Both the position numbers and the translations under genes were made by a program. Positions 5,290 to 49,700 of a stretch of 64,000 nt of DNA are shown one piece after another. Under the pieces are notes generated by a model. That model was not told where the DNA came from and searched no databases. It was given only the letters and a program-made list of their open reading frames with translations. This stretch comes from a virus: positions 1 through 64,000 of the IMG/VR virus record IMGVR_UViG_3300030390_001024, one strand, 5' to 3'. The first letter of the stretch is position 1; each line of letters starts with the position of its first letter.

Positions 5290-6389
5290 CCAACAGAGAA
5301 ATAGTACAAGAAGATGCATTAGACATTGCATTAAAAAATAAAAGATGTGGATTAGGTATATCTATGGGTGTAGGCAAGACAAGAATTGCTATACAACATC
5401 TGATGGTTAACTTTAATCCGTTAATAGAGGCCTTGGTAGTGATACCAAAACACTCAGTATCCCAATCATGGGTTGATGAGTTAGGCAAGATGAATCTAGA
5501 GAAGTTAGTAAAGCATATAACATTTACTACATATCTATCACTAAAGAAACATAATCCAAACAACTATGATATAGTATACCTGGATGAATGTCATTCATTG
5601 TTACCATCTCATGAAATGTTCTTAAGTTTATTTAAAGGTAAGGTACTGGGTCTAACCGGTACACCACCAAGAGATAAACAATCAGAGAAGGGCAGGCTAG
5701 TACATAAGTATTGTCCAATCAAATATGAATTTAGTGTTGATGATGCAACAGACTCTAAGATATTAAATGATTATCAGATCATTATACATGAGTTAGAGTT
5801 GTCTAAGCTACCAACATTAAAGAAGAAAAATAAAACAACAGGTGGTACATGGTGGACCACTGAAGTAAAAGACTATGGTTATGTTACCAATAGAGTTGCT
5901 GAAGCTCAGACTCAAAAGCAAAAACAATTTGCTGCTATAATGAGGATGAGGGCGCTAATGGAATATACAACTAAAGAAGACTATACTAAATCATTACTAA
6001 AGAACTTAGGTTCCAAGTGTATTATATTTGCAAACACACAGAAACAAGCAGATAGAATATGTAAGTATAGCTATCACTCTACCAACAAGAAGTCAGAAGA
6101 TAACCTGGAAATGTTTATTGATGGAAGAATTGATCAGTTATCCTGCGTGTTACAATTATCAGAAGGTGTTACAATAAAAAACCTGAAACAAGGTATTATT
6201 ATGCATGCATATGGTAATGAAAAGAAAACTGCACAGAGAATTGGTAGGTTATTAAGGTTAAATCCTACTGAGACAGCAACATGTCACATACTGTGTTACA
6301 AAGGAACACAAGATGCATCATGGGTCAAGTCAGCACTAAAAGGATTTGATCAGAATAAAATTAAATACTATAACCCCTTAAAAAGATAA
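5286..6389 (+). CDS. Superfamily 2 DExH helicase
   Basis: MGVGKT, DECH, LTGT, QRIGRLLR motifs. Confidence 0.92.
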   Translation: MTNREIVQEDALDIALKNKRCGLGISMGVGKTRIAIQHLMVNFNPLIEALVVIPKHSVSQSWVDELGKMNLEKLVKHITFTTYLSLKKHNPNNYDIVYLDECHSLLPSHEMFLSLFKGKVLGLTGTPPRDKQSEKGRLVHKYCPIKYEFSVDDATDSKILNDYQIIIHELELSKLPTLKKKNKTTGGTWWTTEVKDYGYVTNRVAEAQTQKQKQFAAIMRMRALMEYTTKEDYTKSLLKNLGSKCIIFANTQKQADRICKYSYHSTNKKSEDNLEMFIDGRIDQLSCVLQLSEGVTIKNLKQGIIMHAYGNEKKTAQRIGRLLRLNPTETATCHILCYKGTQDASWVKSALKGFDQNKIKYYNPLKR

Positions 6390-11639: not shown

Positions 11640-12314
11640 ATGTTAAGTACTAAAGACATGTCTGTTGGATCAGGCACAATCAAACCAGTAATTGGAACAG
11701 GTAATCACAAGTTAAAAATCAATTCAATTACTTTTGATCAAACGCCTTATGATGCAGATGCATTTAATATTATGTTACACGTAGAAGGTGAACCAGTAAC
11801 TGGAGAATTTAATGGGTTCTTAAAAGATATGAATAACCCTAATGGAGACCGTTATACTGGTCAGGTAGGTAGAGTTAGATTCTCTCCTTATCCTTATAAA
11901 GATGCTACATTAAATAATGGTAATGAAATCAAAAGAGACACAGAAGTTCTAAAAGCTATGGTGTTTTTATCTGAAGTTGTAGGTAAAAGAAATGAGCTAG
12001 ATGCTATTGAGGCTAATACAATTGAAGACTTTATGGTAAAGGCTGCAGTTGTATGTTCAGAGACTGGATACATCAACGCATGCTTAGGTGCACGTGAATG
12101 GGAAAACAAAGAAGGTTATGTAAATAATGACTTGTTCTTACCAAAGATGAACAAAGAAGGTGTACCTTTAGAAGCTTTAGAAATAGATAACTCTAGAATG
12201 TTGACGTTTGATAAAACAAACACACAGCACTTTAGACCATTACTAAAGAAAGAATCACCATCTGCTGCTAGTTTTGAACCAGCAAAAGCAAAAGGTGATG
12301 ACTTTGATCTATAG
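11640..12314 (+). CDS. Putative SSB partner of the Sak4-like ATPase
   Basis: GNHKLKINSI OB-like start; acidic-aromatic tail DDFDL; gene position. Confidence 0.6.
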   Translation: MLSTKDMSVGSGTIKPVIGTGNHKLKINSITFDQTPYDADAFNIMLHVEGEPVTGEFNGFLKDMNNPNGDRYTGQVGRVRFSPYPYKDATLNNGNEIKRDTEVLKAMVFLSEVVGKRNELDAIEANTIEDFMVKAAVVCSETGYINACLGAREWENKEGYVNNDLFLPKMNKEGVPLEALEIDNSRMLTFDKTNTQHFRPLLKKESPSAASFEPAKAKGDDFDL

Positions 12315-13419: not shown

Positions 13420-13815
13420 ATGAGAAAAATAAGATGGTGGATACCAGGTAACGTACCCTCTAGTAAAAATGGAAGACGTTGGACAGGTAAATACTTTATT
13501 GCTAGCAAAGCTGTAATGAATTATAGAAAAGCTACTAAAGATATATACTTAGAATATGCTGAAGATTTTAAACAAGAATTAGAAAAGGTAAAGTTACCAG
13601 TAAAAATTTCTTTTTATTTTATTAGAGGTAGTCGTCACAAGTTTGATTATATAAATCCTGCACAAACTGTGCAAGATGATATGGTTAAATATGGATGGAT
13701 TGAAGATGATAATGCTGAGTTTATAATTCCTGGCTTTGAACAATATACATATGATAAAGAAAACCCCGGTGTATGGATAGAACTAATTTTAGATGAAGAA
13801 GACAATAACAATTGA
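13420..13815 (+). CDS. RusA-like Holliday junction resolvase
   Basis: IPGNVPSSKN...FDYINPAQTVQDDMVKYGWIEDDN. Confidence 0.75.
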   Translation: MRKIRWWIPGNVPSSKNGRRWTGKYFIASKAVMNYRKATKDIYLEYAEDFKQELEKVKLPVKISFYFIRGSRHKFDYINPAQTVQDDMVKYGWIEDDNAEFIIPGFEQYTYDKENPGVWIELILDEEDNNN

Positions 13816-14095
13816 TGAGTTCTTTAGAATTAAACAAATGCTTCAGGGTCTCCCAGAAGATCAAGCTTTAGGATGTGTAATCTATAATAATTTAGATTAT
13901 GCTGATAAAGATATACTAGATAGATTAATGTGTAAAGCATTAATGTTTGATGCTAGAGTACAATTTTGTATAGCCGTAAAGTATGGTTTTAAAATGGGTT
14001 CACTCAAGTCTTCAAGAATATATCAGTCCTTAACAGAAAATAAATCAGATGAAGTATATACTAATATATTAAGAAAAATAAAAAACTATGATTAA
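13793..14095 (+). CDS. Small helical-domain protein related to 16531 and 17570
   Basis: ITIDEFFRIKQMLQGLPEDQALG...NLDY aligns by eye with ITLDEQLLKDLKSQLNS...EDKALA...TIDY. Confidence 0.7.
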   Translation: MKKTITIDEFFRIKQMLQGLPEDQALGCVIYNNLDYADKDILDRLMCKALMFDARVQFCIAVKYGFKMGSLKSSRIYQSLTENKSDEVYTNILRKIKNYD

Positions 14096-15251
14096 TATAC
14101 AAGATCAGGTTGCTAGAACAACTAAAACTCTAATATTTGATGAGCCCTTTTATGGGCTCTTTTTGATTGGTATCAATAAGAAGTATAGTTTACATATACC
14201 TACTGCAGGTGTAAGTAAACAAGGTATTGGTATGCAATTGACTATAAACCCTGAGTTCTATTTAGAACTGAAAGAAGAGCATAGATATGGGCTTATAAAA
14301 CATGAGCTATTACATATAGCTTTCGGACACTTAATTTTAAGGGACAGGTATTCTAATCACAAGCTATTTAATATAGCTGCAGATTTAGAAATCAACCAAT
14401 ACATATTGGAAAGTAATCTTCCAGAAGGAGGATTATTATTGTCAAGTTTTCCAGAGCTTAATCTACCAAGAAAAGCGGGTACAGATAAATACTATGAGCT
14501 CTTAGACAATGCTCAAGAGGATGGTACATCTCCTACATTAGATTCATTGATGAGTCAAATGGACGGAACTACACCTCACTGTCATGCTACATGGGAAGAG
14601 TTTAATGATTTATCTGAAGCTGATAAGAAACTAGTTGAAAAACAAATTGAACATCAGTTAAAAGAATCTGCTGAACAAACTGTAAAAAGACAAGGTACTG
14701 TTCCAGGAGAGCTAGCTGATCTTATACATAGGCTTACACATATAGAGCCTGCAAAATTTGATTGGAAAGGTTATTTAAGAAGATTTGTTGGTAACTCTAG
14801 TATAGTATATACAAAGAAGTTAAGACGTAAATACAACAAACGTTATGCTGCAAATCCAGGTCTTAAGATTAAGTTTAAGAATCATATACTTGTTGGTGTA
14901 GATACTAGCGGTTCTGTTAATAATGATGAGTTAACAGAGTTCTTTAGTGAGCTGGCACATATGCATAAGACAGGTCACAAGATTACAGTAGCACAGTGTG
15001 ATACTCGGCTAGGTAGCGTGAAAGAGTTTAGTCCTAATAGAGATTGGGAAATACATGGTCGTGGTGGGACAAGCTTCCAACCAGTGATTGACCACTATAA
15101 TGAAAAGAAAGGGCAATATACAGCTCTAATATATTTAACAGATGGTGAAGCTTATCCGCCTGAAGATTGTCCAAAGAATACCTTATGGTGTTTGAGTAGT
15201 ATATCTCAGATGAATGATAACTTACCAGGAAAAGTAATAAAATTTAATTAA
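14088..15251 (+). CDS. DUF2201-type metallopeptidase fused to a VWA domain
   Basis: KHELLH (HExxH), NIAADLEINQ, MIDAS VDTSGS, GRGGTSF, YLTDGE. Confidence 0.9.
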   Translation: MINIQDQVARTTKTLIFDEPFYGLFLIGINKKYSLHIPTAGVSKQGIGMQLTINPEFYLELKEEHRYGLIKHELLHIAFGHLILRDRYSNHKLFNIAADLEINQYILESNLPEGGLLLSSFPELNLPRKAGTDKYYELLDNAQEDGTSPTLDSLMSQMDGTTPHCHATWEEFNDLSEADKKLVEKQIEHQLKESAEQTVKRQGTVPGELADLIHRLTHIEPAKFDWKGYLRRFVGNSSIVYTKKLRRKYNKRYAANPGLKIKFKNHILVGVDTSGSVNNDELTEFFSELAHMHKTGHKITVAQCDTRLGSVKEFSPNRDWEIHGRGGTSFQPVIDHYNEKKGQYTALIYLTDGEAYPPEDCPKNTLWCLSSISQMNDNLPGKVIKFN

Positions 15252-15260
15252 TAAAATAAA

Positions 15261-16529
15261 ATGGCACAAGTAAATTTAAATGTAACAGAACTAAAAGGAT
15301 TTGTAAATCACATAATAGAAAACAACAGATTTCTACAGAATGAAGGAAAGCATCCTGTATCCGTAGAAGTAGTAGGTGAATCAGGTATTGGTAAAACGTC
15401 AAGTATTGTAGAGCTAGCATCAGATAATAATCTAAAATTTGTAAAGTTAAACTTAGCTCAGATAGAAGAGCTTGGTGATCTAGTTGGCTTCCCTGTACGT
15501 CAATTCCAAATGTATAAAGAAAAGATAGTAAAATCAAATAACAATAATATAAACATGGTAACTGCAACACAAAGAGCAGCGGGTGCCAGTTTAGCTAATC
15601 TAAACTCTCAAGTTACTAAAAAAGTAGGCATGTGGGTTGATGAGCTAGCAGTACAAGAGTATCTAAAGAATGGATACAAGATGACTGGTAAGAATAGAAT
15701 GTCTTATTGTGCTCCTGAATGGATTGCTGATGCAAAGGCCGGTGGTATATTATTACTAGATGACTGGAACCGTGCAGATACAAGATTCATTCAAGCAGTT
15801 ATGGAATTGATAGACCGTCAGACTTATATCTCATGGACTCTTCCAAAAGACTGGCATATTATATTAACAGCTAACCCGGACAATGGAGACTATATGGTTA
15901 ATACTGTAGACAGTGCACAGAAGACAAGATATATTACTGCAAACTTAAAGTTTGATGTAAATGTATGGGCGAAGTGGGCAGAGGAAGCAGGTATTGACAC
16001 AAGATGTATTAACTTTCTATTGCTTCATCCTGAACTGGTAACACAAGAGACCAATGCAAGATCTATTACAACCTTCTTTAATGCTATATCTAGCTTTGAT
16101 AACTTTGAAGATAACTTAAGCATTATTCAAATGATTGGTGAAGGTAGTGTAGGTGATGCATTTGCTTCTATGTTTACAACATTTATTAATAATAAACTAG
16201 ACAAACTGGTTACTCCTAAAGATTTATTGACACATGATAATGAGTCTTATATATTAGGAGAGTTGCGTGGGTGTATTGGTAAAGATGATGACTACCGTGC
16301 AGATATTGCATCAACACTATCTACAAGACTTGCTAATTATGCAGTTGTATATTCAAAAGAAAATACAATAAATCAAAAGATTACTGAGAGACTTATAGCA
16401 TTATGTACAAGAGATTACTTTACTAATGATCTTAAGTACTTAATAGTTAGAACAATCTTTAGCGGTAACAAGCAGAAGTTTAATAAGATGATGATGAATC
16501 CAGAAATAATTAAAATGACAATAAAATAA
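15261..16529 (+). CDS. MoxR-like AAA+ ATPase
   Basis: GESGIGKT, LLLDDWNRA, TANP; adjacent to the VWA gene. Confidence 0.9.
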   Translation: MAQVNLNVTELKGFVNHIIENNRFLQNEGKHPVSVEVVGESGIGKTSSIVELASDNNLKFVKLNLAQIEELGDLVGFPVRQFQMYKEKIVKSNNNNINMVTATQRAAGASLANLNSQVTKKVGMWVDELAVQEYLKNGYKMTGKNRMSYCAPEWIADAKAGGILLLDDWNRADTRFIQAVMELIDRQTYISWTLPKDWHIILTANPDNGDYMVNTVDSAQKTRYITANLKFDVNVWAKWAEEAGIDTRCINFLLLHPELVTQETNARSITTFFNAISSFDNFEDNLSIIQMIGEGSVGDAFASMFTTFINNKLDKLVTPKDLLTHDNESYILGELRGCIGKDDDYRADIASTLSTRLANYAVVYSKENTINQKITERLIALCTRDYFTNDLKYLIVRTIFSGNKQKFNKMMMNPEIIKMTIK

Positions 16530-16530
16530 A

Positions 16531-17568
16531 ATGGCAAATAAATCAGTATATCAGGTTTATGATGCTGATGCTTTAATACACTTTGATCTAGCCGGTGACC
16601 CTAAATATGGGTTACTGGTTGGTGATAAGTTTGAAGAAGTATTATGTACTCAAGACCAAACAACATATGAAAAAGTAGAGAGTTTATTAACTACACCTAC
16701 TGAAGATGCACAAACATTTAGAAATAAAAAGAAAGCTTTTATATTACCTAAGTGTGCAGTGTCTCAAGATAGATTAAAAGCAGCTCTAAGAGAGCATAGT
16801 ATAACTGTAACTAATGATTATGAAAAAGCAGATCTAGTTATAGGACATGATAATATAAAGTGTGCTTCTAATAATGGTGAAAATGTACCATCTACAGCCA
16901 TGATGACAAAGCTATGGAACTATGAGCTTACAGCTGGTTCAAGCAGTAATACATCTTCGCTAGCAACTAGGATTAAAAACTTGAATTGTTATGCTATAAT
17001 TACAGAAAAGATAACTGAGAAAATTAACTACTATAATTTAGATACCGGAGATGCTAGTCTATATGATAGTTGGATGTTAACAGGTATGGCTATAAACATA
17101 GCACATCTAATTGAAACAACTGACTTAAGTGTAATTGATACTGAAACTGTCTTGCGTAGTTCAGCAAATATGATTACTTTAGATGAACAATTATTGAAAG
17201 ATCTTAAGTCTCAATTAAATAGTGGTTATCACTCAGAAGATAAAGCTTTAGCAGCTAAAATTATACCTACTATAGATTATAAAACTAACTATCATTTATT
17301 GTGGGAGCTTGGTAGAGAATGTTCTAATATATTCCATGACTTCAATAGAGATAAAGACTTATGGTTTTGGATTGAAGAATCTAAACTGCGTAAATTTAGC
17401 AATAAAACTGCACAGGATATGATACTGTGGTTAGAAGTAAATGAATTACTTAACAAAAAAAACTTCAAACATTTAGAACCTATAGTAAGACAAGAAATCA
17501 CTATACATAATAGAGACCTTTATACATTTAAAGTGGCAGTAAAAAAAGAATACTTAAAATATTTATAA
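16531..17568 (+). CDS. BRCT-like plus helical-domain protein, paralog A
   Basis: KKAFILPKCAVSQDRL...ITVTNDYEKADLVIG. Confidence 0.65.
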   Translation: MANKSVYQVYDADALIHFDLAGDPKYGLLVGDKFEEVLCTQDQTTYEKVESLLTTPTEDAQTFRNKKKAFILPKCAVSQDRLKAALREHSITVTNDYEKADLVIGHDNIKCASNNGENVPSTAMMTKLWNYELTAGSSSNTSSLATRIKNLNCYAIITEKITEKINYYNLDTGDASLYDSWMLTGMAINIAHLIETTDLSVIDTETVLRSSANMITLDEQLLKDLKSQLNSGYHSEDKALAAKIIPTIDYKTNYHLLWELGRECSNIFHDFNRDKDLWFWIEESKLRKFSNKTAQDMILWLEVNELLNKKNFKHLEPIVRQEITIHNRDLYTFKVAVKKEYLKYL

Positions 17569-17569
17569 A

Positions 17570-18727
17570 ATGAAAGAAAATCAAAATTATATAATAAAGT
17601 TTAGAACAGATACAAAATTCTGGTCTAGCGGACACCTACAGAAAGATGGTGTGGAGTTTGAAGAAGACGGCATATTCTTATTGGATGGTGCAAGTTGGCA
17701 AATATCACATGAAGACTTAAGCTTCTTAGGTATAACAAAGTTACCAGATGATTTTGACATCACTAATAAAAAATTATACAGATATCCTAAATTAAATTTA
17801 CCTAGACAAAAGGTAGATTTATTAAAAGAAAAGTATAATGTAAAAGTAATAAGAGATGTAGAAAAATCTGATATGCAAATTGTATCATTAAAGTTATTTA
17901 ATACTATTGCTAGTAGCAGCTGGAATAAATCATACACTAAGAAAAATTTCTATGAGATATGTAAAGAGCTAGTTAAAAGACATCTTTTATCTGATGATGC
18001 AAGAAAAAGAATTGGTGAAATATTACAAGATACACATTCAACTTCTAGATTTGATATTCGTTGTAACAAAGAAGATTGGAATGCTACAACAGCAACTAAG
18101 AGTAAAACTTTAGAAGAGGTTGTGCATGCAATGAAAAAAGAATTTGAAGGTGAATATCATAAGACATATGTAATTAAAGAGACTAAACACATTGATACAT
18201 ATAATCAACTTATGAAAGGTAAGATGATTGTTCTTGATAGAGATATAGCTAAGATATGTTCAGAGGGTCTTGCTATAATTGGTAAGGATGATTATCCGCA
18301 ATTAAAAAAGATGATAGTAAGCAATGACATAGAAAATAGAACAATTGCTTTAGAAACTTTAGCTAATTGTAATCTTGAAGCTTCCTTTGATGTGGTGGCC
18401 TTATTATTTTATTATTTCTTTGAGTGGTGTAAATCAACAAATAACTGGAATACAGTTAATGTTAAAACTTTAAGAAATAGATTTAGTGATATGTCAACCT
18501 ATGGAAATGAGAGTAATGGTAATTATCATACGCAGATAGTTAAATATTTATATGATGAAGGTTACTTAACTGAATTTGCTATAGAGACTATAAAGAAAAA
18601 GATCTTTGATAAAGTTATAACATCTGCAGGTATAAACCAAGAACGCTCAGCATTTGAAATATCTCTTGAAGATATAAAAATTAAAACACCATTTAAAGAA
18701 TCAATAATAGAAAACATATGTTTATAA
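17570..18727 (+). CDS. BRCT-like plus helical-domain protein, paralog B
   Basis: KKLYRYPKLNLPRQKV...VKVIRDVEKSDMQIVS. Confidence 0.65.
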   Translation: MKENQNYIIKFRTDTKFWSSGHLQKDGVEFEEDGIFLLDGASWQISHEDLSFLGITKLPDDFDITNKKLYRYPKLNLPRQKVDLLKEKYNVKVIRDVEKSDMQIVSLKLFNTIASSSWNKSYTKKNFYEICKELVKRHLLSDDARKRIGEILQDTHSTSRFDIRCNKEDWNATTATKSKTLEEVVHAMKKEFEGEYHKTYVIKETKHIDTYNQLMKGKMIVLDRDIAKICSEGLAIIGKDDYPQLKKMIVSNDIENRTIALETLANCNLEASFDVVALLFYYFFEWCKSTNNWNTVNVKTLRNRFSDMSTYGNESNGNYHTQIVKYLYDEGYLTEFAIETIKKKIFDKVITSAGINQERSAFEISLEDIKIKTPFKESIIENICL

Positions 18728-40928: not shown

Positions 40929-43900
40929 TTAATCAGAAATACGGAAAGTCTTAAGTTTCTCAAAGTTTTTCCATTTATTAAATGTTGATAAAATTGGCAT
41001 TGCATCAGCCATGTTTTTATAAAACTTTAACTGTCCTTTTCTTGGTTTATTCTGATATACAAGATCACTATCTCCTCTAAATTCTGCACTATCAAAACCA
41101 TAAAGTCCTCCATATAGTAGAGTACTTAGACCTACAGAAAATGCTTCTGCCAACTCACCAAGCGTTCTTGTAGAAGCTATTGGACTACCTATCATAGCAA
41201 AGAGTTCTTGTACACCAGCAGGAGATACTGGAACAAACATTACCATTTCTTTATATGTTCTTTCTGTTTGATATCTAGCAAAGTTCTTTACTTTCCTAAC
41301 CCACATTGCTTCATCACTTTCATCATCACCCCATGCAGCATCTAGTAATGACATCATCATCATACTAAGTATAATCATAGATAGTTCACCAACAGTTCTG
41401 TTTATATTACCAACTTTATTTTGTACTAAAGCCTCCATATCTGATGCAGCAATCTCTCCACCACTATCCGTTTGGTTGTTATCCCTAATAGATTGTTTGT
41501 ATTCTGATACTATCTCACCCATCTTTACCTTACCTGTTGCTACTGTTTTAGTTGCATGTATTAAAAACTGCATAGTTGATCTATATCTTCCTTCCATCCA
41601 ACCTAAATTCTGGTCATAGTACTGCTTTTGACCTCTGGCTCTCATAGCAGGCGGAAACCATTTATGAAATTGAAATACTAATTGACCTAACCAATGGTTC
41701 TGAGCAACAGTTCTATCTATTCTAGCATAGTTACCATGCGTCTGTTTATTTACTTCTCTTATTTCATTTCTTATATCAGCAAAAGCTTTACTACTTTGTG
41801 TAAGTGGTCCGTTTAGAGGAACTTTTATTCCTGTTACTTTATTAGGAACATACCTTGTCCATTTTTTTGGATATGTAATTTCTTTTTTAACAGTATCCCA
41901 TACTCCAGCATCATATATGGTTGTGCTTTCCCCACCATCTTCTGTAAAAAGCATAGTATCAAGCAATACAGCAGTTCCAATTTTAGTTTGTACAGCATAT
42001 TCAAATCCATCCTGTAATGTATAACCTATTGCTTTAAATCTTTCCCATATAGTTTTTCCTCCAGATGATTCTTTACCTGATTCTCTTATGTCTATATCGT
42101 CATCCATCATTCTCCAAAACTCATTGGTTCCTTCATACTTATTTGTAGGCTTATTTGGGTTGTATGATCTTCCTGTGAATTTTGTTCCTCCTAAAGTAAC
42201 TACATCAGTAACTTCAGGGATACCAAACATAGCTGTTCTTTTAATAATTCCAGCCATTCCTTCTGTGTTAAACTCTTTTTCTGCCCGTAAATATGCTCTT
42301 CTTGAAAAGAATCTACCTCCTATACCTTCTATTGTATTGTTAATTTGACCTAGCACAACGTTGTTTATATTACCAAAAGGGTTGAAGGCAACATAAGATA
42401 ATGATGACCATGAAATTAAAAAGCTAGCAAATTTATCTACAAAGCCTTTACTATCTTTAGCATTATCATATAACACCATCTTTTGCCACATTCTTGCTCT
42501 ACGTACTACATTTTTTTGAAGACCCTCGTTACCAGCCTCACCTTTAATATTCCATTTTTCTGGTGTAACTTTATCTAACATTCCTGTAATTAAATTTCCT
42601 CCTGGTGCAATGTATGATCTTTTTTCTAGTACTTTAATCAGTGCATTGATTGTATCTTCTACAGCACCCATAGTCTCAAAATGTTCAGCCATTCTGTTAA
42701 ACTGTAATAAACTATCTGTTAAATCAGTGCTTACCTCTCCTATTGTAGGTTGGCTTCTTTGTTTTTGTACTTCAGCTTCTAATATATTTCTTTTTTTATT
42801 ATACTCATTTAGCTTTATCTTTTTGTTTTTATAGTCTTCTTTAAGCTCTGTAATTTTATTTTCTAACTCAGTAAGTTTCTTTTCTACTCTAGGGCTACCA
42901 GTAAAAAATATTGGCAGGCTATCCATTCTTTCTCCTAATTCATTAACAACTACAGTTTTTTGTTGCGTAGTAGATGTAAATAAGTTTTTCAGACTCCTGC
43001 TTGATCTAGCCCATAGTCTAGTAAGTAATCCTCCATAAGAATTTTTTCTCAAATCAGCTGCAATATTACTTCTTACTAAAGGAACCTGTCCACTCATTTT
43101 CTGTCTTTGCTGTGGAGGTATTTTACCAAGCATATCTTGTACATATACTTTCTGAACCATATCGTAGTATTCTCTACGTGCTACAGCTAATGCATCATTT
43201 ACCTTAGGCTCCATTATATCTATATACTTTTGACTTCTCATATCCTCTGGCTTACCTGTTTTTGGATCTATAGGCCTAGCTATTAATCTAGGTTCAACGT
43301 ATTCATTTTTTACAGATGAAAAAATTTCATCTCTTTTTATTTGACCTGTAGGTACAAACACACCATTTACTTTTTTCTTAAAAGCTTTTACATAATCTGT
43401 AGTTCTATAGTATTTAGATTTGTATTTGATATAATCATTTTTTGATACACCACTACGTTGTTCCCAACTAAAAGTCCTAGGATTCCACTCTTCATAAACA
43501 TTACGCACATCTTTAAACTCTTGTGTATATCTATGATAATCACCATCTATTGGTTGATTCTTATCATTTAACATCTCACCTCTCATGAAATTTCTTACCT
43601 CAGTTTTCTTTTTAGATAACTCTTTATTCCATTTTATATTTTCTCTTCCCTCCTCTGTCTTTTTTGCTTCTTCTATATCTGTAACATCTGCATATAAAAA
43701 AGGTACACCTCCCTCATCTTGTGTAGAACGAAATAAATCTCTACGTCTTTTACGGAACTTTAAACCTAATGGCTGTACTAATGAATCTTCAGACAATACA
43801 CCATTCTCATCATAATTTAACATATAGTCATAAAGCCTATCTTTAGATACACCAGGTTGAAGTAATCTAAGTTTTTCAGCTGCAGCTATAAGTACCTGAT

Positions 43901-46727
43901 CACGTGCAGCAATATTACTTAATACCTTTTGTAACTGAGCTTTATAAACCTTATCTATTGTTGATAGTATAGCATCTTTACTTGTTGCCATATCTTTTGT
44001 AAATAAAGCTGATAAACTTATATCAGGAACTGTAGTCAAGAGATCTTGAAAATCAGCTAAAGTAAATGTCATACCTGAATGATCTTGAATAATTCTTTTG
44101 TCACTTGGATCACCACCCTCTCTCATATTTACCCTAACAATTTCTTCAGCAAAATCAAACAGTGCTCTATTTACTAACCCTTGTCTATCAATCTTTTTAT
44201 TAATTACTGACGCAGGCCCATTTAGTTCAATCAGTGTTGCATTGATATTATTTATTAAATATCTTTGTGTAGCATTTAATTGTTCTATTAGTCCTTCATT
44301 ATTTTTAAAGTTATATAGACCTTCAAAGGTTGACATAAACCTATCAAAACCTAATACTTTATTTATAAACTCCATCTCTTTAACATTATCTGGGTTAGTA
44401 ATGTAATCTTTGTATTCTTTCATTTGTCTTAAAGAATCCTGTAAGAGCTTTGTAAATGCCTGAGAAATATCTTTATTATTATCAGGATCAAGCAATGCTG
44501 TATCTATAAGAGCTAAAGTATTCTCTATTTGTTCTTTAGCTTCTGCCTTACTTCTCTCCATATAGACGTTGCTCTTTAGCTTATCTAACATTTCTTGTTT
44601 AGTAATAATAGCCAACCTATAGTCTTTAATTGCACCAAATACAGCTCCTAATGCTACATTTTCATATGGATCTATAATATCTTCCATCAATGCATCTTCT
44701 ACCTCTTCTTTTCTTGAATCATATACAATTCCATCAGCACCACCCTCCTCTAATTTTTTGTCTAGCATTTCTCCTTCAACATTATAAACTGTTTCAGGAA
44801 TTAAAAAGTCTACGTTCTCACCATTATCCATTTCATTATGTGGAACTATACTTGTATATTCTAGTTTAGGGAGTGTTGATATATCATCATTTATTTCAAT
44901 ATTTATAGTTGATCTAGCAAACCTATCCATATCCATTTTATATCCCATGTTGGTAGCCATTCTAGCTATAAGATTTATCTGAATTGCATCTTGCACTCTT
45001 ATTGGTAACTCAGTTATGTTATTATTTTTTAATCTGTTTCCTGATTCTAAAGGAACCAAAACATCATCATATCCAGATGCTTGATCAGAATTAATTATAT
45101 TAATTTTTATAATTTTTAAATTACCAAACTTATCAATCAATACTATCTCTGCCTTTTCTGCAATATCTTTTTTAGGGTCAGAAAAAATAACATTACTTAA
45201 TGTAACATCAGTATCATTTTTAATTGTTATGATATCAGCTTTAATATTATCAAATGTTTCTTTTGCTGTTTCTTTGTTCAATGACAAACTTTCAGATATT
45301 TCTTCAAAAGTTTTATATGATACAATTGCATCAACTATTGTGCTAATATCATTTTTAATTTTTGAAGAAAATTTATCAGCTTTACCTATTACCTCACCAG
45401 ATGATGGATATGCTTTTCTAGTATTTATATCATAAAAAGTATTATTATCTTTATTAAGAACCACCAAGTTGTTTATAAAGTTATTAGGTGTATTAGCAGA
45501 TAATGAATCTGATAAAGCAGCCGTTTCTTTTATATTATGAGTCATCTCATTAATGACTGTTTTTTGTTGATCTGTTCTAGAAGACTTTAAAGCTTGATTT
45601 ACTAAACTTTGTTTTTCCGGTGTAAGATTATATCTTACTCTACCGTTTATAGACTTACCTGTTTCAAAAGATATACCTGAAGTATTTAATAACTTAGCTA
45701 CGTCAGACAAAGTTAGATCAGATCTTATTGCTTGTACTGGTAATTTTCTACCAGTTATATATTGATTAAGGTTTTCAATTATATTTTTAAACCACTTAAG
45801 CAATTCTTCTATACTACTTAAGAAAGACTGCGTAGGACTTTCTTCATACTCTTTATTAAAATGTCTTGACAAAGCCTGAGTAATTACTTCCATTTCTCTT
45901 TCCTCTGCAGTTATATTTCTTTTCTTATTATATGCATCTTCTATTTGTTGGGTCATCTCAGGAAACATACGTCTAGATTCATCTAATAAAGTTTCGTACA
46001 GTGGTATGTTATCTACCTTTACTGCATCTATAAAAGGATGTAGCATCTCCTCAATTAGTATTTCATCAGTGACCCTACCCTTAATTAAAATAGCATTATT
46101 AGCAACATAAAAAGAATTAACCTCTGCAAAAGGCACTTTAGCTTTTCTCCACTGTGGTAATAAATCATACCTTTTTTTTGCTTCTGTAGGTGTAAGTAAT
46201 TTTACACTTACATCAGGAAACATCCTCATTAAATGTTTTACTACTTGTCTTGCTCTAGGAGTGTCCCAAGATCTTGATTGAGGAAGCATGTCTTTTGCCG
46301 TAAATAAATTACTATTAACTGACACTGCAAATGTTTTAGGAGTCTTATCTATATTTAATGAGTTTGCTGGTAAATTATTAGCCTCTAAATATCTTTTTGC
46401 TCTTCTAACATTTGAATCTATTAATGAATCACTTATCTGTAATGTATCTTGATCAGTGTTATTTATATAATAAGAACCTTGATGACTATGAATAATCTTT
46501 TCTCTACTTAGATTATTTAATAAGGCTTGTCCAAATTCTTTTTGCTTTAAATTGTTCAAAGCTCTTTTATCTTTAACATATGAAGCAGCTTCTACTACAG
46601 TAGGAATTGCATCACTGTCAGTTGAATCTTGCCAACTATTAATAACGTTAGTAGTTATAAGATCTGTTTTATAAACTTCTAATAATGCTATATACTCTGC
46701 TGTATTTTTATTGGGACATTTTGCCAT
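40929..46727 (-). CDS. Giant virion cargo/ejection protein (1932 aa)
   Basis: Adjacent to the vRNAP gene; zincin-like EEMLH; degenerate nuclease segment; HGNY...QFHKW C-terminal region. Confidence 0.75.
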   Translation of the reverse strand: MAKCPNKNTAEYIALLEVYKTDLITTNVINSWQDSTDSDAIPTVVEAASYVKDKRALNNLKQKEFGQALLNNLSREKIIHSHQGSYYINNTDQDTLQISDSLIDSNVRRAKRYLEANNLPANSLNIDKTPKTFAVSVNSNLFTAKDMLPQSRSWDTPRARQVVKHLMRMFPDVSVKLLTPTEAKKRYDLLPQWRKAKVPFAEVNSFYVANNAILIKGRVTDEILIEEMLHPFIDAVKVDNIPLYETLLDESRRMFPEMTQQIEDAYNKKRNITAEEREMEVITQALSRHFNKEYEESPTQSFLSSIEELLKWFKNIIENLNQYITGRKLPVQAIRSDLTLSDVAKLLNTSGISFETGKSINGRVRYNLTPEKQSLVNQALKSSRTDQQKTVINEMTHNIKETAALSDSLSANTPNNFINNLVVLNKDNNTFYDINTRKAYPSSGEVIGKADKFSSKIKNDISTIVDAIVSYKTFEEISESLSLNKETAKETFDNIKADIITIKNDTDVTLSNVIFSDPKKDIAEKAEIVLIDKFGNLKIIKINIINSDQASGYDDVLVPLESGNRLKNNNITELPIRVQDAIQINLIARMATNMGYKMDMDRFARSTINIEINDDISTLPKLEYTSIVPHNEMDNGENVDFLIPETVYNVEGEMLDKKLEEGGADGIVYDSRKEEVEDALMEDIIDPYENVALGAVFGAIKDYRLAIITKQEMLDKLKSNVYMERSKAEAKEQIENTLALIDTALLDPDNNKDISQAFTKLLQDSLRQMKEYKDYITNPDNVKEMEFINKVLGFDRFMSTFEGLYNFKNNEGLIEQLNATQRYLINNINATLIELNGPASVINKKIDRQGLVNRALFDFAEEIVRVNMREGGDPSDKRIIQDHSGMTFTLADFQDLLTTVPDISLSALFTKDMATSKDAILSTIDKVYKAQLQKVLSNIAARDQVLIAAAEKLRLLQPGVSKDRLYDYMLNYDENGVLSEDSLVQPLGLKFRKRRRDLFRSTQDEGGVPFLYADVTDIEEAKKTEEGRENIKWNKELSKKKTEVRNFMRGEMLNDKNQPIDGDYHRYTQEFKDVRNVYEEWNPRTFSWEQRSGVSKNDYIKYKSKYYRTTDYVKAFKKKVNGVFVPTGQIKRDEIFSSVKNEYVEPRLIARPIDPKTGKPEDMRSQKYIDIMEPKVNDALAVARREYYDMVQKVYVQDMLGKIPPQQRQKMSGQVPLVRSNIAADLRKNSYGGLLTRLWARSSRSLKNLFTSTTQQKTVVVNELGERMDSLPIFFTGSPRVEKKLTELENKITELKEDYKNKKIKLNEYNKKRNILEAEVQKQRSQPTIGEVSTDLTDSLLQFNRMAEHFETMGAVEDTINALIKVLEKRSYIAPGGNLITGMLDKVTPEKWNIKGEAGNEGLQKNVVRRARMWQKMVLYDNAKDSKGFVDKFASFLISWSSLSYVAFNPFGNINNVVLGQINNTIEGIGGRFFSRRAYLRAEKEFNTEGMAGIIKRTAMFGIPEVTDVVTLGGTKFTGRSYNPNKPTNKYEGTNEFWRMMDDDIDIRESGKESSGGKTIWERFKAIGYTLQDGFEYAVQTKIGTAVLLDTMLFTEDGGESTTIYDAGVWDTVKKEITYPKKWTRYVPNKVTGIKVPLNGPLTQSSKAFADIRNEIREVNKQTHGNYARIDRTVAQNHWLGQLVFQFHKWFPPAMRARGQKQYYDQNLGWMEGRYRSTMQFLIHATKTVATGKVKMGEIVSEYKQSIRDNNQTDSGGEIAASDMEALVQNKVGNINRTVGELSMIILSMMMMSLLDAAWGDDESDEAMWVRKVKNFARYQTERTYKEMVMFVPVSPAGVQELFAMIGSPIASTRTLGELAEAFSVGLSTLLYGGLYGFDSAEFRGDSDLVYQNKPRKGQLKFYKNMADAMPILSTFNKWKNFEKLKTFRISD

Positions 46728-46729
46728 AA

Positions 46730-49700
46730 CTATAAATTACATTTTTTAATTTGATCAATTAAATCTTGAGGACTACTCCACATAGAATTAGGGTTGGTAT
46801 CATACAAATCTAATAAATCTTCTAAACTATTAATATTATTTTCTCTTTTAAAGTTCTTAACTTCTGTTTTAAATGAACCATCTTCTATATTGTTATCCCA
46901 AAACTCTGTTATTTCAGGATGGCTAATAGAAGGATCAAACATATCTAATTGACCTATTAACTCTTGTCTTTGCTCACTAATGTTAAACTCTTCTGTTTCT
47001 AATATACCTAATTCTTCAGAAGTAATATTTTCTGTTGCCTCTGCAATTGATGCTTGAGCAGCATCTAATTCTTTAGTGTCTTTTATATTTATACTGTTAA
47101 AAGATATCTCTTCATTTGTTATATCCATATTAACAGATTGATTACGGAATATTTCTGGTACCTTAGTAGTTTGTTCTATTGGTTTATCACTTTCAACAAC
47201 CTCTGAATTTTTTTCAGACACTTCAGGCTTAGCTAACATTTGATTAAAAGTAGGTCTGTTTCCAAACATAAATCCTGCACCAAACTGCAGAGGAGAACCC
47301 TTCAACTCAGCTGGTGTCTTTTCTGCATCATTTCTTTCAAACACTGTTGTTATCCTGCCTGTCTGTTCATCAGTAATATCTATCCTTCTTATTGCTATCT
47401 CTTTATCAGATGCTTCTGAAAACTTTGCTGGCAGCAACTTAGCATTAGATGCAGATAGTAAATAATTTTGTACAAAACCTCTATTAGCTCCTGAATCTAT
47501 ATATGCTTGAGATGCCAAATATTTTTCTGTAGAATTAATTGCTGATAAATAATCTCCTAAAACATAAGGACTCATTGATTCTAATAAACTTCCTGTTGCT
47601 AACTGTAAACCATCTTTAACCATTATATAATCTATAATAGTTTTTGCATATCCTCTTGTATCAGGATCGTTATATAATTTATTAAATGAAGTTTGTAAAT
47701 CATATTTTTGTAATCTATTTAATCTTCTCCATGTATTTGCTAGAGCTAAATATAAACCTGATGCATTACCTTTATCATTTGGTTTATATGTTGTAACAAA
47801 ATTAAACAAAAAGAAATTACCAGGATCACTTATTCTAAGCTGTTGCACTGCATTCCATACACTGCCTTGTTCATTGTCCTGTCCAGGATATAATACACCA
47901 TTGCTTAATGGATTATTTTCATCTATATTTTGATATGCACCAAAGGTTATAAAAGCCAAAATATCTTTTTTAACTTTTGATCTAGCATACTCACTATTCT
48001 TATATGTTTCTGGGTCTAAATTTCTAACTAAAGCTGTTGTAATTAACTTTACTCTTGGTGTCTGTGATAAAAACATTTTTGGTAATATGTTTTTATTTAG
48101 GTCTTCTAGTTGCTCACCTAAACCAGATACATAAGAATTACTTAACATATTTCTAACCTTTATATAATAAGGGTTGTTTACAAATTCATCCATGGTTTCT
48201 ACTCTCAAAGATATAGAATCAATGTTTTTTCCTAACCCATTATTAAGACTCACCCAACTATTTAACTTAACAGTAAAGTCAGATATATTCATTATAGTAC
48301 TAAAAGTTTGTACAACCCCCTGTAACTCAGCTCCTTCTAAGTTTACACCTACTCCTCTTTTTAAAATTTCATAATTAGGAACTTGACCTTTTACTATTTT
48401 CCCTTTATCATCTCTTTCTATAAGGTTGTTTATAGATTTTTTGATACCTTGAATAGATTGGCTATCATCATTTTCAATTTTTGTATATATATCTTGTATA
48501 ACTTTTTGATTTAAAAGTAATATAGAAGTCTCTAATGGTACACCAATCTGAATCATGTTTGACAACATACGTGTAGCATGAGCATTTAAACCTAACTTGC
48601 TTACCAAAAACTCTTTAGCATTGTCTGTCATAGCAACTATTAAAGAAGACATTAAATCTTGTTTTCTTTTTCCTTCTTTATTTAAAGTCCCACCAAAAGT
48701 AGTATAACTTTCATTATCAAGTTCAAACTTTAAAGTACCTAAGCTTATTTTATATTCTTTAAATAAAGATAAATATAAATTTGGTGAAACTACTGAACCA
48801 ATTGAAGCACCTTTGTTGTTTGTAAAAGCAATAGTTTGTCCTGTAAGTGTATCTATATCTTTTCCTAGTTGATTAATTCTTTCTGAAAAACCAGCAAAAC
48901 CTTGTACACTAGCCCAAACATCATTTAATAAATCTAAGTTAGATGGTCTATAAGCTATAGGCTCTGTACCTGATGTTAAATAATCATTACTTACTAAATA
49001 ACGTTTTTGATCTACTAATTCATTGCTTACAGGAGCTTCATAAGGAGCTTGTTTATTCTTTTTTATATACTTATTAAAATCATTTTGAGTAATAGGCATT
49101 CCTAATACTTTTAAAGCACCAATAGCATTCTTACTAAAACCTGCATTTTCAGCAGGTGTTTGATCTATATCAACCAATGAATCAGATATAATTACTCCTT
49201 GTAATTTATATAACTTTATAGCCTCAGAATATTGATTTCCTGTTTCATTAACTTTTTTATTTACATAATTAATATAGCTAGAATAATTTTTTTCATATGC
49301 TTTAAACTCACCGTTTTCTACATAAAACTCTTTCATGTGAATGTATGCTTGATCTATATCAAAATCTGCACCGGATACTTCTATTAGTTCATTAGAAAAC
49401 ATTGCTGATCCACCCATAAAGTTTGGTAAAAAATCAACAACCTTTACATTAAAAGCAGAATGATAGTCCTCACTAGGTATACGTACAGCATACATCTCAC
49501 TAACTACATCAGGTATATTATTTTTATATCTTCTAGATTTACTCTTATAAGCTAATAAGTCATTTACTTCTTTTGATTGAGGAGGCATAATTGCTTCAGA
49601 ATATCTTTGACCTTGATATTTACCATCTTTATATTCTTTTAGATTATATCTTAAACGGTCTAATATAATAACTCCTCCTGCCGGTAAAGGATCACCAGTA

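What the first reader, a model, noticed from the sequence alone, without database searches (positions are those of the whole stretch)
13793..18727. Five-gene MoxR/VWA-peptidase system with three genes sharing an unnamed helical domain
Seen: the VWA-metallopeptidase and MoxR ATPase are flanked by three 'hypothetical' genes that share a motif. 13793 has ITIDEFFRIKQMLQG-LPEDQALG..YNNLDY, 16531 has ITLDEQLLKDLKSQLNSGYHSEDKALA..IPTIDY, and 17570 has IIGKDDYPQLKKMIVSNDIENRTIAL..LANCNL. The two larger proteins also share an N-terminal BRCT-like segment (K..F/Y..PK..V/L....T/RD.EKA/SD..I). All five genes overlap or lie <=9 nt apart. Known: MoxR ATPases use VWA adaptors to remodel substrates. Inference: a phage-encoded ATP-dependent remodelling or proteolysis machine with interchangeable adaptors, for host takeover or counter-defence.
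Basis: partly seen in the sequence, partly recalled or inferred. Interest (0 to 1): 0.8.

Follow-up and report, generated by a model that had tools for sequence, protein, structure and literature searches.

The report
Phage MoxR-protease pair with BRCT/ARM partners
An uncultured marine phage of about 115 kb carries, among its DNA-replication genes, an ATPase plus protease/vWA gene pair that is known from N4-like phages but has no known function, and here the pair is flanked by three fast-evolving members of one undescribed protein family that may be its targeting subunits, though this is untested.

Summary

**The three 'hypotheticals' are related.** The 345-aa (g4) and 385-aa (g5) proteins are full-length paralogues (hhalign 92.8%, E 4e-7, 267 columns). 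Their AlphaFold models have the same architecture: a variable N-terminal domain, a BRCT-like domain with a large insert, and an ARM/HEAT-like helical domain. Both models hit the same four uncharacterised viral proteins and nothing else. The 100-aa protein (g1) shares only a ~45-residue two-helix ARM-like unit (hhalign 89%, E 2e-6). Six neighbouring gene families used as controls give P 0.03-0.6.

**The engine is already known.** The zincin-vWA protein and the MoxR-like ATPase are homologues of N4 gp25/gp24, core genes of N4-like phages with unknown function.

**The link between partners and engine is not shown.**
- The block is syntenic in every related contig long enough to show it, but all those contigs belong to one phage lineage.
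- Four other phage lineages and four bacterial loci have the pair without these partners.
- Tight gene packing also continues into the flanking RusA and nuclease genes.

An adaptor role is therefore plausible but unproven, and 'interchangeable adaptors' is not supported. The scan has already noted this module in at least ten related phage genomes. I rate it a new variant of a known kind, of moderate interest.

The parts
13793..14095 (+). g1: 100-aa helical mini-protein of the partner family. It overlaps the RusA gene by 23 nt and g2 by 8 nt.
   Evidence: ORF. No Pfam or PHROG hit. Orthologues in 69 of 80 loci by tblastn, and more diverged copies by HMM. dN/dS 0.36.
13796..13930 (+). Shared ~45-aa two-helix ARM-like unit of g1 (aa 2-46)
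   Evidence: hhalign against the g5 family: prob 89.3%, E 2.1e-6. Against g4: E 1.7e-3. This is the most conserved part of g1.
14088..15251 (+). g2: zincin metallopeptidase (DUF2201_N, aa 48-253) fused to a vWA domain (DUF2201, aa 268-384). Homologue of N4 gp25.
   Evidence: Pfam hits above the curated cut-offs. phrog_1314, E 4e-64. tblastn finds 393 phage records, including 'gp25' of N4-like phages.
14301..14315 (+). HELLH zinc-binding/catalytic motif of g2 (aa 72-76)
   Evidence: Read from the translation. HE[LI]LH is present in 79 of 79 orthologues.
14901..14915 (+). MIDAS DTSGS motif of the vWA domain (aa 272-276)
   Evidence: DxSxS at the MIDAS position in 78 of 79 orthologues (77 DTSGS, 1 DTSAS). 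GGT.F is in 79 of 79 and LTDG in 78 of 79.
15261..16529 (+). g3: MoxR-like AAA+ ATPase, homologue of N4 gp24. Walker A is GESGIGKT (aa 39-46). Walker B is LLLDDWNRA (aa 164-172), with D-D where D-E is usual.
   Evidence: phrog_1297, E 8.7e-34. Weak AAA_5/AAA_3 matches. Best PDB sequence match is the Midasin AAA domains, E 3e-8. Alignment with N4-type gp24 and the AD45-P4 COG0714 protein. Motifs invariant in 79 of 79 orthologues. dN/dS 0.085.
16531..17568 (+). g4: 345-aa partner-family paralogue, made of an N-terminal domain, a BRCT-like domain with an insert (aa ~61-214) and an ARM/HEAT-like helical domain (aa ~213-322).
   Evidence: AF2 model, pLDDT 87.3. VIA BRCT hits at Z 5.3-7.0 and ARM/HEAT hits at Z 5.3-6.4. 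BFVD hits at prob 1.00 to the same four proteins as g5. hhalign against the g5 family: 92.8%.
17170..17310 (+). Shared ARM-like unit in g4 (aa ~214-260)
   Evidence: Aligned to g1 5-38 and to g5 234-280.
17570..18727 (+). g5: 385-aa partner-family paralogue with a hypervariable N-terminal beta domain, a BRCT-like domain with an insert (aa ~60-234) and an ARM/HEAT-like helical domain (aa ~235-352). It overlaps the downstream PD-(D/E)XK nuclease gene by 10 nt.
   Evidence: AF2 model, pLDDT 88.8. VIA BRCT hits at Z 5-6.7 and ARM hits at Z ~5-5.7. BFVD hits at E 3e-10 to 5e-6. 792 clusters in the 1.84-billion-protein library at E<=1e-3. dN/dS 0.53.
18269..18409 (+). Shared ARM-like unit in g5 (aa 234-280)
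   Evidence: hhalign with g1 and g4. With BRCT-like part 1, it is the most conserved region of the g5 family: entropy 2.0 bits, against 3.1-3.3 in the N-terminal domain and the insert.

Best explanation
**What it is (shown).** A conserved gene block lies inside the replication module of an uncultured marine phage. Around it are helicases, a Sak4-like protein, primase, RusA, a PD-(D/E)XK exonuclease and a DNA polymerase.

Its core is the N4 gp25/gp24-type pair: a zincin metallopeptidase fused to a vWA/MIDAS domain, and a MoxR-like AAA+ ATPase. Three members of one undescribed, phage-restricted protein family bracket the core:
- two full-length paralogues, each with a variable N-terminal domain, a BRCT-like domain split by a variable insert, and an ARM/HEAT-like helical domain;
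- a 100-aa protein that keeps only the first ~45-residue two-helix unit of that helical domain.

**How it most likely works (inferred).**
- The slowly evolving ATPase and vWA-peptidase are an ATP-driven remodelling or proteolysis engine, as in other MoxR-vWA pairs.
- The fast-evolving family members are its partner subunits, either adaptors or regulated substrates.
- The shared ARM-like unit, one of the two most conserved parts of the family, is the common docking element for the engine.
- The BRCT-like domain contacts DNA ends or replication/repair proteins. In many relatives, but not in this window, an SSB-like DDLPF C-terminal tip would do the same.
For: **Homology and architecture of the three proteins**
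- hhalign comparisons with negative controls, and the HMM test with decoys.
- AF2 models of pLDDT 87-89.
- Fold matches, and the same four BFVD neighbours for both models.

**Identity of the engine**
- Family matches and motifs.
- N4 gp24/gp25 are listed as conserved genes of unknown function in PMC2784036. The vWFA gene is listed among the 14 core genes of N4-like phages in PMC10783043.

**Linkage**
- g4 and g5 are present in all related loci with enough downstream sequence.
- The order is kept in loci where g5 is only 21-25% identical.
- Locus L083 gave no RusA, PD-(D/E)XK or g1 match but keeps vWA-peptidase, ATPase, g4 and g5 together.
- The family sits on both sides of the pair.

**Rate contrast.** dN/dS is 0.085 and 0.117 for the engine, against 0.23, 0.36 and 0.53 for the partners. 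Variability is concentrated in the N-terminal domain and the insert, while BRCT-like part 1 and the shared unit are conserved.

**Replication link.** 60 of 133 g5-family representatives end in D(D)LPF. From my own knowledge, this resembles the bacterial SSB C-terminal tip.
Against: - No physical or genetic test links the partners to the engine.
- Every syntenic locus belongs to one phage lineage, in which the whole replication module is collinear. Synteny is therefore weak evidence.
- The gp24/gp25-type pair occurs without detectable g1, g4 or g5 relatives in an N4-like phage, Alteromonas phage AD45-P4, Moorella phage MTATph1, Planktothrix phage Pag-Yong1 and four bacterial loci.
- Tight gene packing continues beyond the five genes.
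- The BRCT and ARM assignments rest on modest Z-scores (5-7), with no Pfam or PDB sequence match.
- The ATPase has D-D instead of the catalytic D-E in Walker B, so its activity may be atypical.
- The window's own g5 lacks the SSB-like tip.
Confidence: 0.4

Rival explanations
1. Neighbours only. g1, g4 and g5 are replication or recombination scaffold proteins built from BRCT-like, ARM-like and sometimes SSB-tip modules. They work at the phage replisome independently of the MoxR-vWA pair. Adjacency reflects the frozen gene order of this lineage's replication module, and the shared unit reflects tandem duplication.
For: - The pair exists without them in four other phage lineages and four bacterial loci.
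- Packing and synteny extend to RusA, primase, the nuclease and the following gene.
- 45% of g5-family representatives carry a DDLPF tip.
- All fetched loci belong to one lineage.
Against: - L083 keeps the four-gene core although its flanking genes differ.
- The family brackets the pair on both sides.
- No locus with enough sequence separates them.
Confidence: 0.3
2. Arms-race proteins. The fast-evolving g5 and g1 (and g4) are host-takeover or counter-defence factors, for example decoys or inhibitors of host proteins that read SSB tails or DNA ends. They act alone rather than as subunits of the ATPase machine.
For: - High dN/dS, with a hypervariable N-terminal domain and insert.
- The family is restricted to phages: one hit in 185,579 species genomes, on a phage-sized contig.
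- An early/replication operon location is typical of such genes.
Against: - dN/dS stays below 1.
- No PADLOC or other family hit.
- Both paralogues are strictly retained in all related phages, whereas anti-defence genes are usually patchy.
Confidence: 0.15
3. Substrates, not adaptors. The vWA-peptidase and ATPase process or unfold g1, g4 and g5 themselves, for example by cleavage near the shared unit to activate or remove them.
For: A common conserved unit in three proteins next to a peptidase could be a recognition site. From my own knowledge of integrin and midasin MIDAS domains, these bind an acidic residue of the ligand. The unit has a conserved Asp: invariant in g1 and nearly invariant in g4 and g5.
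Against: No cleavage evidence. The conserved Asp is equally explained as a helix cap of an ARM/HEAT hairpin.
Confidence: 0.1
4. The shared motif is a chance resemblance between helical, low-complexity segments, and only g4 and g5 are related.
For: Pairwise BLASTP between the window's own proteins is marginal (E 0.07 and 3). The g1 HMM against the window's own g4 and g5 gives only E 0.16-0.17.
Against: - Profile-profile P is 2e-6, at mutually consistent positions in all three comparisons.
- Controls give P >= 0.03.
- Decoy ORFs start at E 0.58, while g5 orthologues reach 1.7e-4.
Confidence: 0.04

Closest known systems
Coliphage N4 gp24 (AAA ATPase) and gp25 (vWFA/DUF2201 protein), and their homologues in N4-like phages (Schitoviridae), jumbo phages (RaK2, PBECO4) and others
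   Same: Both have an adjacent MoxR-like ATPase and zincin-vWA protein among DNA-metabolism genes. tblastn with g2 finds 393 phage records, including annotated 'gp25'. The function is unknown in both (PMC2784036, PMC10783043).
   Different: - Gene order is vWA-peptidase then ATPase here, but ATPase then vWA in N4.
- Walker B is D-D here and D-E in N4 gp24.
- N4-like phages show no g1, g4 or g5 relatives near the pair.
Bacterial MoxR-vWA chaperone pairs (RavA-ViaA, CbbQ-CbbO, NorQ-NorD) and COG0714 + COG3864 pairs
   Same: An AAA+ ATPase of the MoxR/dynein/midasin clade is encoded next to a MIDAS-containing vWA protein. Four sampled bacterial genomes have homologous adjacent pairs.
   Different: The vWA protein here carries an N-terminal HExxH peptidase domain. 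The known client enzymes of the bacterial pairs are absent. The setting is a phage replication module, and the BRCT/ARM partners were not found in the bacterial loci.
vWA-MoxR-VMAP ternary conflict systems (Kaur, Burroughs, Iyer, Aravind 2020, eLife; PMC7159879)
   Same: A MoxR ATPase and a vWA protein are combined with additional, rapidly diversifying partner proteins. That paper reports HEAT/TPR-type repeats and occasional metallopeptidase domains in such systems.
   Different: Those systems are cellular, mostly from multicellular bacteria, and are defined by a VMAP component and effector domains. I found no VMAP or effector here and did not test for them specifically. This block is phage-encoded and lies among replication genes.
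BRCT domains of DNA-repair and replication proteins (XRCC1, PARP4, TopBP1, RFC p140, REV1, Dbf4)
   Same: They are the best structural matches to residues ~60-234 of g5 and ~61-214 of g4: Z 5.3-7.0, ~70-80 aligned residues, rmsd ~3 Å.
   Different: There is no sequence-level match to BRCT families. The fold is interrupted by a ~70-90-residue variable insert. The phosphate-binding pocket was not examined.
Four uncharacterised viral proteins in BFVD: A0A8S5QMV2 (CrAss-like virus sp. ctYsL76), A0A6J5LXR8 (uncultured Caudovirales phage), and A0A8S5TL70 and A0A8S5TKB2 (both from Podoviridae sp. ctz6O13)
   Same: They are the only confident whole-protein structural neighbours of both g4 and g5 (prob 1.00, E 3e-10 to 5e-6). 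They are of similar length, and two come from one phage, which suggests a paralogue pair as here.
   Different: Sequence identity is 9-14%. Their genomic context, including whether MoxR/vWA genes lie nearby, could not be examined with the tools available.

Membership tests
DUF2201 zincin-vWA protein (Pfam PF13203 + PF09967; COG3864; N4 gp25) | Both Pfam domains above the gathering cut-off | tested here: met
   PF13203 scores 69.5 bits (cut-off 23.2) and PF09967 58.4 bits (cut-off 26.4).
DUF2201 zincin-vWA protein (Pfam PF13203 + PF09967; COG3864; N4 gp25) | HExxH zinc site and MIDAS DxSxS...T...D motifs | tested here: met
   HELLH at aa 72-76. DTSGS, GGTSF and LTDG are conserved in 78-79 of 79 orthologues.
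DUF2201 zincin-vWA protein (Pfam PF13203 + PF09967; COG3864; N4 gp25) | Homology to annotated N4 gp25 | tested here: met
   tblastn to Escherichia phage vB_Eco_Jura 'gp25': 94% coverage, 23.9% identity, E 5e-11. phmmer gives 1.2e-17.
MoxR-type AAA+ ATPase (AAA_3/AAA_5; COG0714; N4 gp24) | Pfam AAA_3 or AAA_5 above the gathering cut-off | tested here: not met
   AAA_5 scores 18.8 bits (cut-off 22) and AAA_3 14.9 bits (cut-off 27). These are similarity-level matches only.
MoxR-type AAA+ ATPase (AAA_3/AAA_5; COG0714; N4 gp24) | Walker A GxxGxGK[ST], and Walker B hhhhDE followed by xNRA | tested here: inconclusive
   Walker A is GESGIGKT, and the xNRA after Walker B is present. Walker B reads LLLDD, not D-E, in 79 of 79 orthologues. 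N4 gp24 and the AD45-P4 protein have D-E.
MoxR-type AAA+ ATPase (AAA_3/AAA_5; COG0714; N4 gp24) | Homology to recognised members, and an adjacent vWA partner gene | tested here: met
   phrog_1297, E 8.7e-34. phmmer to the AD45-P4 protein annotated COG0714 gives 6.8e-9. Midasin AAA domains match at E 3e-8. The vWA gene lies 9 nt upstream.
BRCT domain | Sequence match to BRCT families or to solved BRCT chains | tested here: not met
   No BRCT family at E<=1 in the 29 g5 orthologues. No PDB chain at E<=10 with profiles A1 and A6, and A2 gave only one unrelated chain at E 2.
BRCT domain | The beta-alpha-beta-beta-alpha-beta-alpha BRCT fold | tested here: inconclusive
   About half of the top 50 VIA matches of both models are BRCT domains, at Z 5.3-7.0, 68-83 aligned residues and rmsd 2.4-4 Å. 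These Z values are below the level at which the tool's notes advise trusting a match on its own.
BRCT domain | Phosphate-binding pocket (S/T-G loop and a Lys) | not tested
   I only noted a conserved basic loop after strand 1: YRxPKLxLPRxK in g5 and KKKAFxLPK in g4.
ARM/HEAT repeat proteins | Stacked helical hairpins matching known repeat proteins | tested here: inconclusive
   Adaptins, beta-catenin, STAG1, USP9X and SmgGDS match at Z 4.6-6.4 over ~70 residues. No consistent Pfam repeat family matches: only isolated weak hits to repeat-type families (TPR_Edg1 0.0034, DNA_alkylation 0.024, ARM_TT21_N 0.017), each in one or two members.
vWA-MoxR-VMAP ternary conflict system | A VMAP component and an effector domain next to the vWA and MoxR genes | not tested
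   No VMAP profile was available. No PADLOC hit for g1, g2, g4 or g5, and only weak BrxF and Cas13a matches for g3. No Pfam effector domain was found.
SSB C-terminal tip mimic (D-D-[IL]-P-F-COOH) | The protein ends in an acidic stretch followed by [IL]PF | tested here: not met
   The window's g5 ends ...ENICL. The tip is present in 60 of 133 family representatives and in 3 of 68 near orthologues.

The most novel reading that the evidence does not exclude
g1, g4 and g5 would be the missing targeting subunits of the widespread N4 gp24/gp25-type machine. In that reading the block encodes a phage ATP-driven protein extractor and protease. The BRCT-like and ARM-like adaptors (with SSB-tip mimics in many relatives) would direct it to proteins bound at DNA ends or replication forks, such as host SSB-interacting enzymes or DNA-bound blocks. 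This would be a functional analogue of the eukaryotic p97-SPRTN/Wss1 system, and it would give the first handle on what the gp24/gp25 pair does.
Probability: 0.2. Interest if true: 0.7.

Novelty: new variant of a known kind. Interest (0 to 1): 0.45.

Why it matters
The ATPase plus zincin-vWA pair is widespread. Its vWFA gene is listed among the core genes of N4-like phages, and g2 homologues occur in 393 phage records, including jumbo phages. Homologous pairs also occur in bacteria. No function has been assigned to it.

In this abundant marine phage lineage the ATPase search matched 567 viral contigs. In all of the 80 best that are long enough to show it, the pair is flanked by an undescribed protein family: 792 clusters at 50% identity matched the g5 profile. 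That family has protein-interaction folds typical of replication and repair hubs.

If these proteins are the pair's partners, they give concrete baits for finding its substrates. If they are not, they are still a large unannotated family of BRCT-like/ARM-like phage replication-module proteins. Many of them carry an SSB-like C-terminal tip, which would be worth testing for binding to host replication proteins.

Tried and rejected
**Searches that found nothing**
- DNA and protein searches of the INPHARED phage collection with the region, g4, g5 and a divergent family member gave no match. The ATPase found only a remote Bacillus phage hit.
- PDB sequence searches with profiles of g5 (A1, A6), g4 (A2) and with g2 found nothing useful.
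- Foldseek of the g5 model against PDB found nothing at E<=0.001, only weak RFC, UDP-glucose dehydrogenase and BRCA1-BRCT rows.
- Pfam scans of every g5 and g1 orthologue at E<=1 gave no consistent family. NCBIfam and PADLOC gave nothing significant, apart from a weak SprT hit around HExxH at E 0.027.
- ESM Atlas: the g1 model is of low confidence (pLDDT 0.58), with sub-0.5 TM hits to sigma-70 region 4/HTH proteins. g5 gave only sub-0.9 feature hits. I rejected both as uninformative.

**Attempts to reach other lineages**
- The search for related loci with a 36-sequence alignment of divergent family members failed because no stretch was conserved enough.
- Single divergent representatives (P0146, P0120, P0141) all led back to the same phage lineage.
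- The genome-contig scan gave one hit, a phage-sized contig in a MAG.
The context of the representatives and of the BFVD hits could therefore not be read.

**Other**
- The promoter and terminator scan gave counts at chance level and did not define an operon.
I did not reproduce this in four bacterial loci sampled from one phylum, which may not be the same loci.

Full report
**Anatomy**

The window is part of a 75,860-base IMG/VR virus record estimated to be 66% complete, so the whole genome is about 115 kb. Positions 1-24,700 form one + strand block of replication genes:
- DNA helicase and DnaB-like helicase
- Sak4-like protein, primase and RusA
- the five genes of the finding
- a PD-(D/E)XK exonuclease
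- a DNA polymerase

| Gene | Coordinates | Length |
|---|---|---|
| g1 | 13793-14095 | 100 aa |
| g2 | 14088-15251 | 387 aa |
| g3 | 15261-16529 | 422 aa |
| g4 | 16531-17568 | 345 aa |
| g5 | 17570-18727 | 385 aa |

The stated spacing (overlaps or gaps of at most 9 nt) is correct. The same packing continues outwards, however. RusA overlaps g1 by 23 nt, the nuclease overlaps g5 by 10 nt, and the next gene follows after 1 nt. Spacing therefore does not delimit a five-gene unit.

**The engine (g2 and g3)**

g2 matches both halves of the DUF2201 architecture above Pfam's cut-offs: the DUF2201_N metallopeptidase (E 4.5e-19) and the DUF2201 vWA domain (E 1e-15). Across 79 orthologues, HE[LI]LH is present in all. 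The MIDAS elements are present in 78-79: DxSxS in 78 (DTSGS in 77), GGT.F in 79 and LTDG in 78.

g3 is an AAA+ ATPase. The evidence is:
- phrog_1297, E 8.7e-34.
- Sub-threshold AAA_5 and AAA_3 hits.
- Best PDB sequence match to the AAA domains of Midasin, E 3e-8.
- Walker A is GESGIGKT. A MoxR-style NRA follows Walker B, but Walker B itself reads LLLDD, not D-E, in 79 of 79 orthologues.

tblastn with g2 finds 393 phage records. Many are N4-like phages in which the gene is annotated gp25, and others are jumbo phages such as RaK2. In Escherichia phage vB_Eco_Jura the neighbours are gp24 and gp25. In Alteromonas phage AD45-P4 the neighbours are annotated COG3864 and COG0714 'MoxR-like ATPases'.

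Published tables list N4 gp24 (AAA ATPase) and gp25 (vWFA) as conserved genes of unknown function (PMC2784036), and the vWFA gene is among the 14 core genes of N4-like phages (PMC10783043). The pair is therefore known, but its function is not.

**The three 'hypotheticals' (g1, g4 and g5)**

None of them hits Pfam, PHROGs, NCBIfam or PADLOC significantly.

A search of viral contigs with the ATPase gave 567 relatives. In the best 80, the ATPase is 86-97% identical to the window's, and all five genes are collinear. The partners are far more diverged: median identity is 62% for g4, 46% for g1 and 35% for g5.

*Profile comparisons.* With orthologue profiles only, the three pairwise comparisons all pick the same segment, at E 1e-3, 7e-5 and 1.7e-3.

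A profile search of 1.84 billion representative proteins with the g5 alignment found 792 clusters at E<=1e-3 and 168 at E<=1e-30. With a 133-sequence g5 profile built from those:
- g4 aligns over 267 columns, g4 64-345 on g5 64-383, at probability 92.8% and E 4.1e-7.
- g1 aligns over 45 columns, g1 2-46 on g5 234-280, at probability 89.3% and E 2.1e-6.

*Controls.*
- The same profiles against six neighbouring gene families give P 0.03-0.59.
- In 2731 stop-to-stop ORFs from all loci, the best non-self hits of the g1 HMM are g5 orthologues (E 1.7e-4) and then g4 orthologues (E 0.009). Decoy ORFs start at E 0.58.

g4 and g5 are full-length paralogues, and g1 shares one short unit with them.

**Folds**

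The AlphaFold2 models are confident: pLDDT 88.8 for g5 and 87.3 for g4. Their secondary-structure orders are nearly superposable.

Against 48,161 PDB representatives, both models give two classes of match:
- BRCT domains (XRCC1, PARP4, TopBP1, REV1, RFC p140, Dbf4, MCPH1), at Z 5.3-7.0 with about 75 aligned residues. The matches span residues ~60-234 of g5 and ~61-214 of g4, so the BRCT-like core is split by a 70-90-residue insert.
- ARM/HEAT repeat proteins (adaptins, beta-catenin, STAG1, USP9X, SmgGDS), at Z 4.6-6.4 over ~70 residues. The matches span residues ~235-312 of g5 and ~213-292 of g4.

These Z values are modest. I call the domains BRCT-like and ARM/HEAT-like rather than members of those families, and no sequence-level match exists. 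The shared unit is the first helical hairpin of the ARM-like domain.

Against BFVD, both models hit the same four uncharacterised viral proteins at probability 1.00 and nothing else. One is from a crAss-like virus, one from an uncultured Caudovirales phage, and two are from a single 'Podoviridae sp.' genome. This supports one structural family that tends to occur in pairs.

**Evolution**

Pairwise NG86 estimates over 810 locus pairs give the following dN/dS values. Synonymous sites are near saturation, so these are rough.

| Gene | dN/dS |
|---|---|
| ATPase (g3) | 0.085 |
| vWA-peptidase (g2) | 0.117 |
| g4 | 0.234 |
| g1 | 0.357 |
| g5 | 0.534 |

Within g5, the N-terminal domain and the insert are hypervariable (entropy 3.1-3.3 bits). 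BRCT-like part 1 (1.9 bits) and the shared unit (2.0 bits) are the most conserved parts. In g1 the shared unit is also the better conserved half.

The family appears to be restricted to phages. A scan of 185,579 species genomes gave a single hit, on a 114.7-kb phage-sized contig in a MAG.

**Is the family tied to the engine?**

*In favour.*
- g4 and g5 are found in every related locus that is not truncated.
- Loci reached from g5 representatives only 21-25% identical to the window's g5 keep the order primase, RusA, g1, vWA-peptidase, ATPase, g4, g5, nuclease.
- One locus (L083) gave no RusA, nuclease or g1 match but keeps vWA-peptidase, ATPase, g4 and g5.
- The family lies on both sides of the pair.

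*Against.*
- All these loci belong to one lineage with a collinear replication module.
- HMM scans found no g1, g4 or g5 relatives near the pair in an N4-like phage, AD45-P4, Moorella phage MTATph1, Planktothrix phage Pag-Yong1 or four bacterial loci from a 400-genome sample.

The contexts of the four BFVD proteins would be the key independent test.

**A functional clue from relatives**

Earlier scan notes gave me a lead on an SSB-like tail, and I checked it. 60 of 133 g5-family representatives end in ...D(D)LPF. To my knowledge this is the form of the bacterial SSB C-terminal tip that recruits replication and repair enzymes.

The window's g5 ends ...ENICL and lacks it, and only 3 of 68 near orthologues have it. 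This points the family towards replisome or repair contacts. It fits either an adaptor role or an independent scaffold role.

**Mechanism I commit to (confidence about 0.4)**

- *Shown:* the identities, motifs, homology, folds, synteny within the lineage and the rate contrast.
- *Inferred:* the conserved MoxR-like ATPase and zincin-vWA protein form an ATP-driven remodelling or proteolysis engine. g1, g4 and g5 are its partner subunits and dock through the shared ARM-like unit. Their BRCT-like domains (and SSB-like tips in many relatives) address DNA ends or replication/repair proteins.

The main rival, at about 0.3, is that the family works independently at the replisome and is merely adjacent to the pair. 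Lesser rivals are stand-alone arms-race proteins (0.15), substrates rather than adaptors (0.1) and a chance motif (0.04).

**Novelty and scoring**

The pair is known, and the partner family is undescribed in the libraries I searched. The scan has already noted and followed up this same module in at least ten related phage genomes, with concordant conclusions. Those notes are not independent evidence.

I rate this a new variant of a known kind, with interest 0.45.

Noticed in passing
L051, L052 and L062 (g5 orthologues); alignment A6; window 17570-18727 for comparison: 60 of 133 g5-family representatives end in ...D(D)LPF-COOH, which resembles the bacterial SSB C-terminal tip. The window's g5 ends ENICL, and only 3 of 68 near orthologues carry the tip.
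   Followed up: partly
window 15750-15776 (g3 aa 164-172): Walker B of the MoxR-like ATPase is LLLDDWNRA (D-D, not the catalytic D-E) in 79 of 79 orthologues. N4-type gp24 and the AD45-P4 homologue have D-E. ATP hydrolysis may be slow or regulated.
   Followed up: partly
window 11640-12314 (+): A 224-aa ORF directly after the Sak4-like gene ends in the acidic/aromatic tail ...KGDDFDL and has no PHROG hit. It could be the phage's own SSB-like protein.
   Followed up: no
window 46730-59893, 40929-46727 and 59910-63221 (- strand): Giant ORFs of 4387, 1932 and 1103 aa have no PHROG match at all. The 4387-aa size recalls the virion RNA polymerases of N4-like and crAss-like phages, but I did not test this.
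   Followed up: no
GenBank phage records hit: Many records annotate the DUF2201 zincin-vWA protein as 'HNH endonuclease', which is the label of phrog_1314. This looks like a propagated misannotation, because the protein has HExxH peptidase and vWA/MIDAS domains.
   Followed up: partly
window 14142-14159 (+): A terminator-like hairpin (GAGCCC-TTTTAT-GGGCTC followed by a T-run) lies just inside the 5' end of g2, 47 nt after the g1 stop. It overlaps codons of the N-terminal EPFYGLF segment of g2, so it may be a by-product of the coding sequence.
   Followed up: no
L038, L040, L043 and L044 (about 5568-6001): In a subgroup of relatives, about 430 nt are inserted between the vWA-peptidase and ATPase genes, and the interval between RusA and the vWA gene is longer. 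I did not examine the content.
   Followed up: no
L092 (WLWP01000004.1, 114,697-b contig of a 'Pseudomonadales bacterium' MAG): This contig carries the whole module with the same synteny and is the size of a complete phage genome of this lineage. It is probably a phage contig binned into a bacterial MAG.
   Followed up: partly
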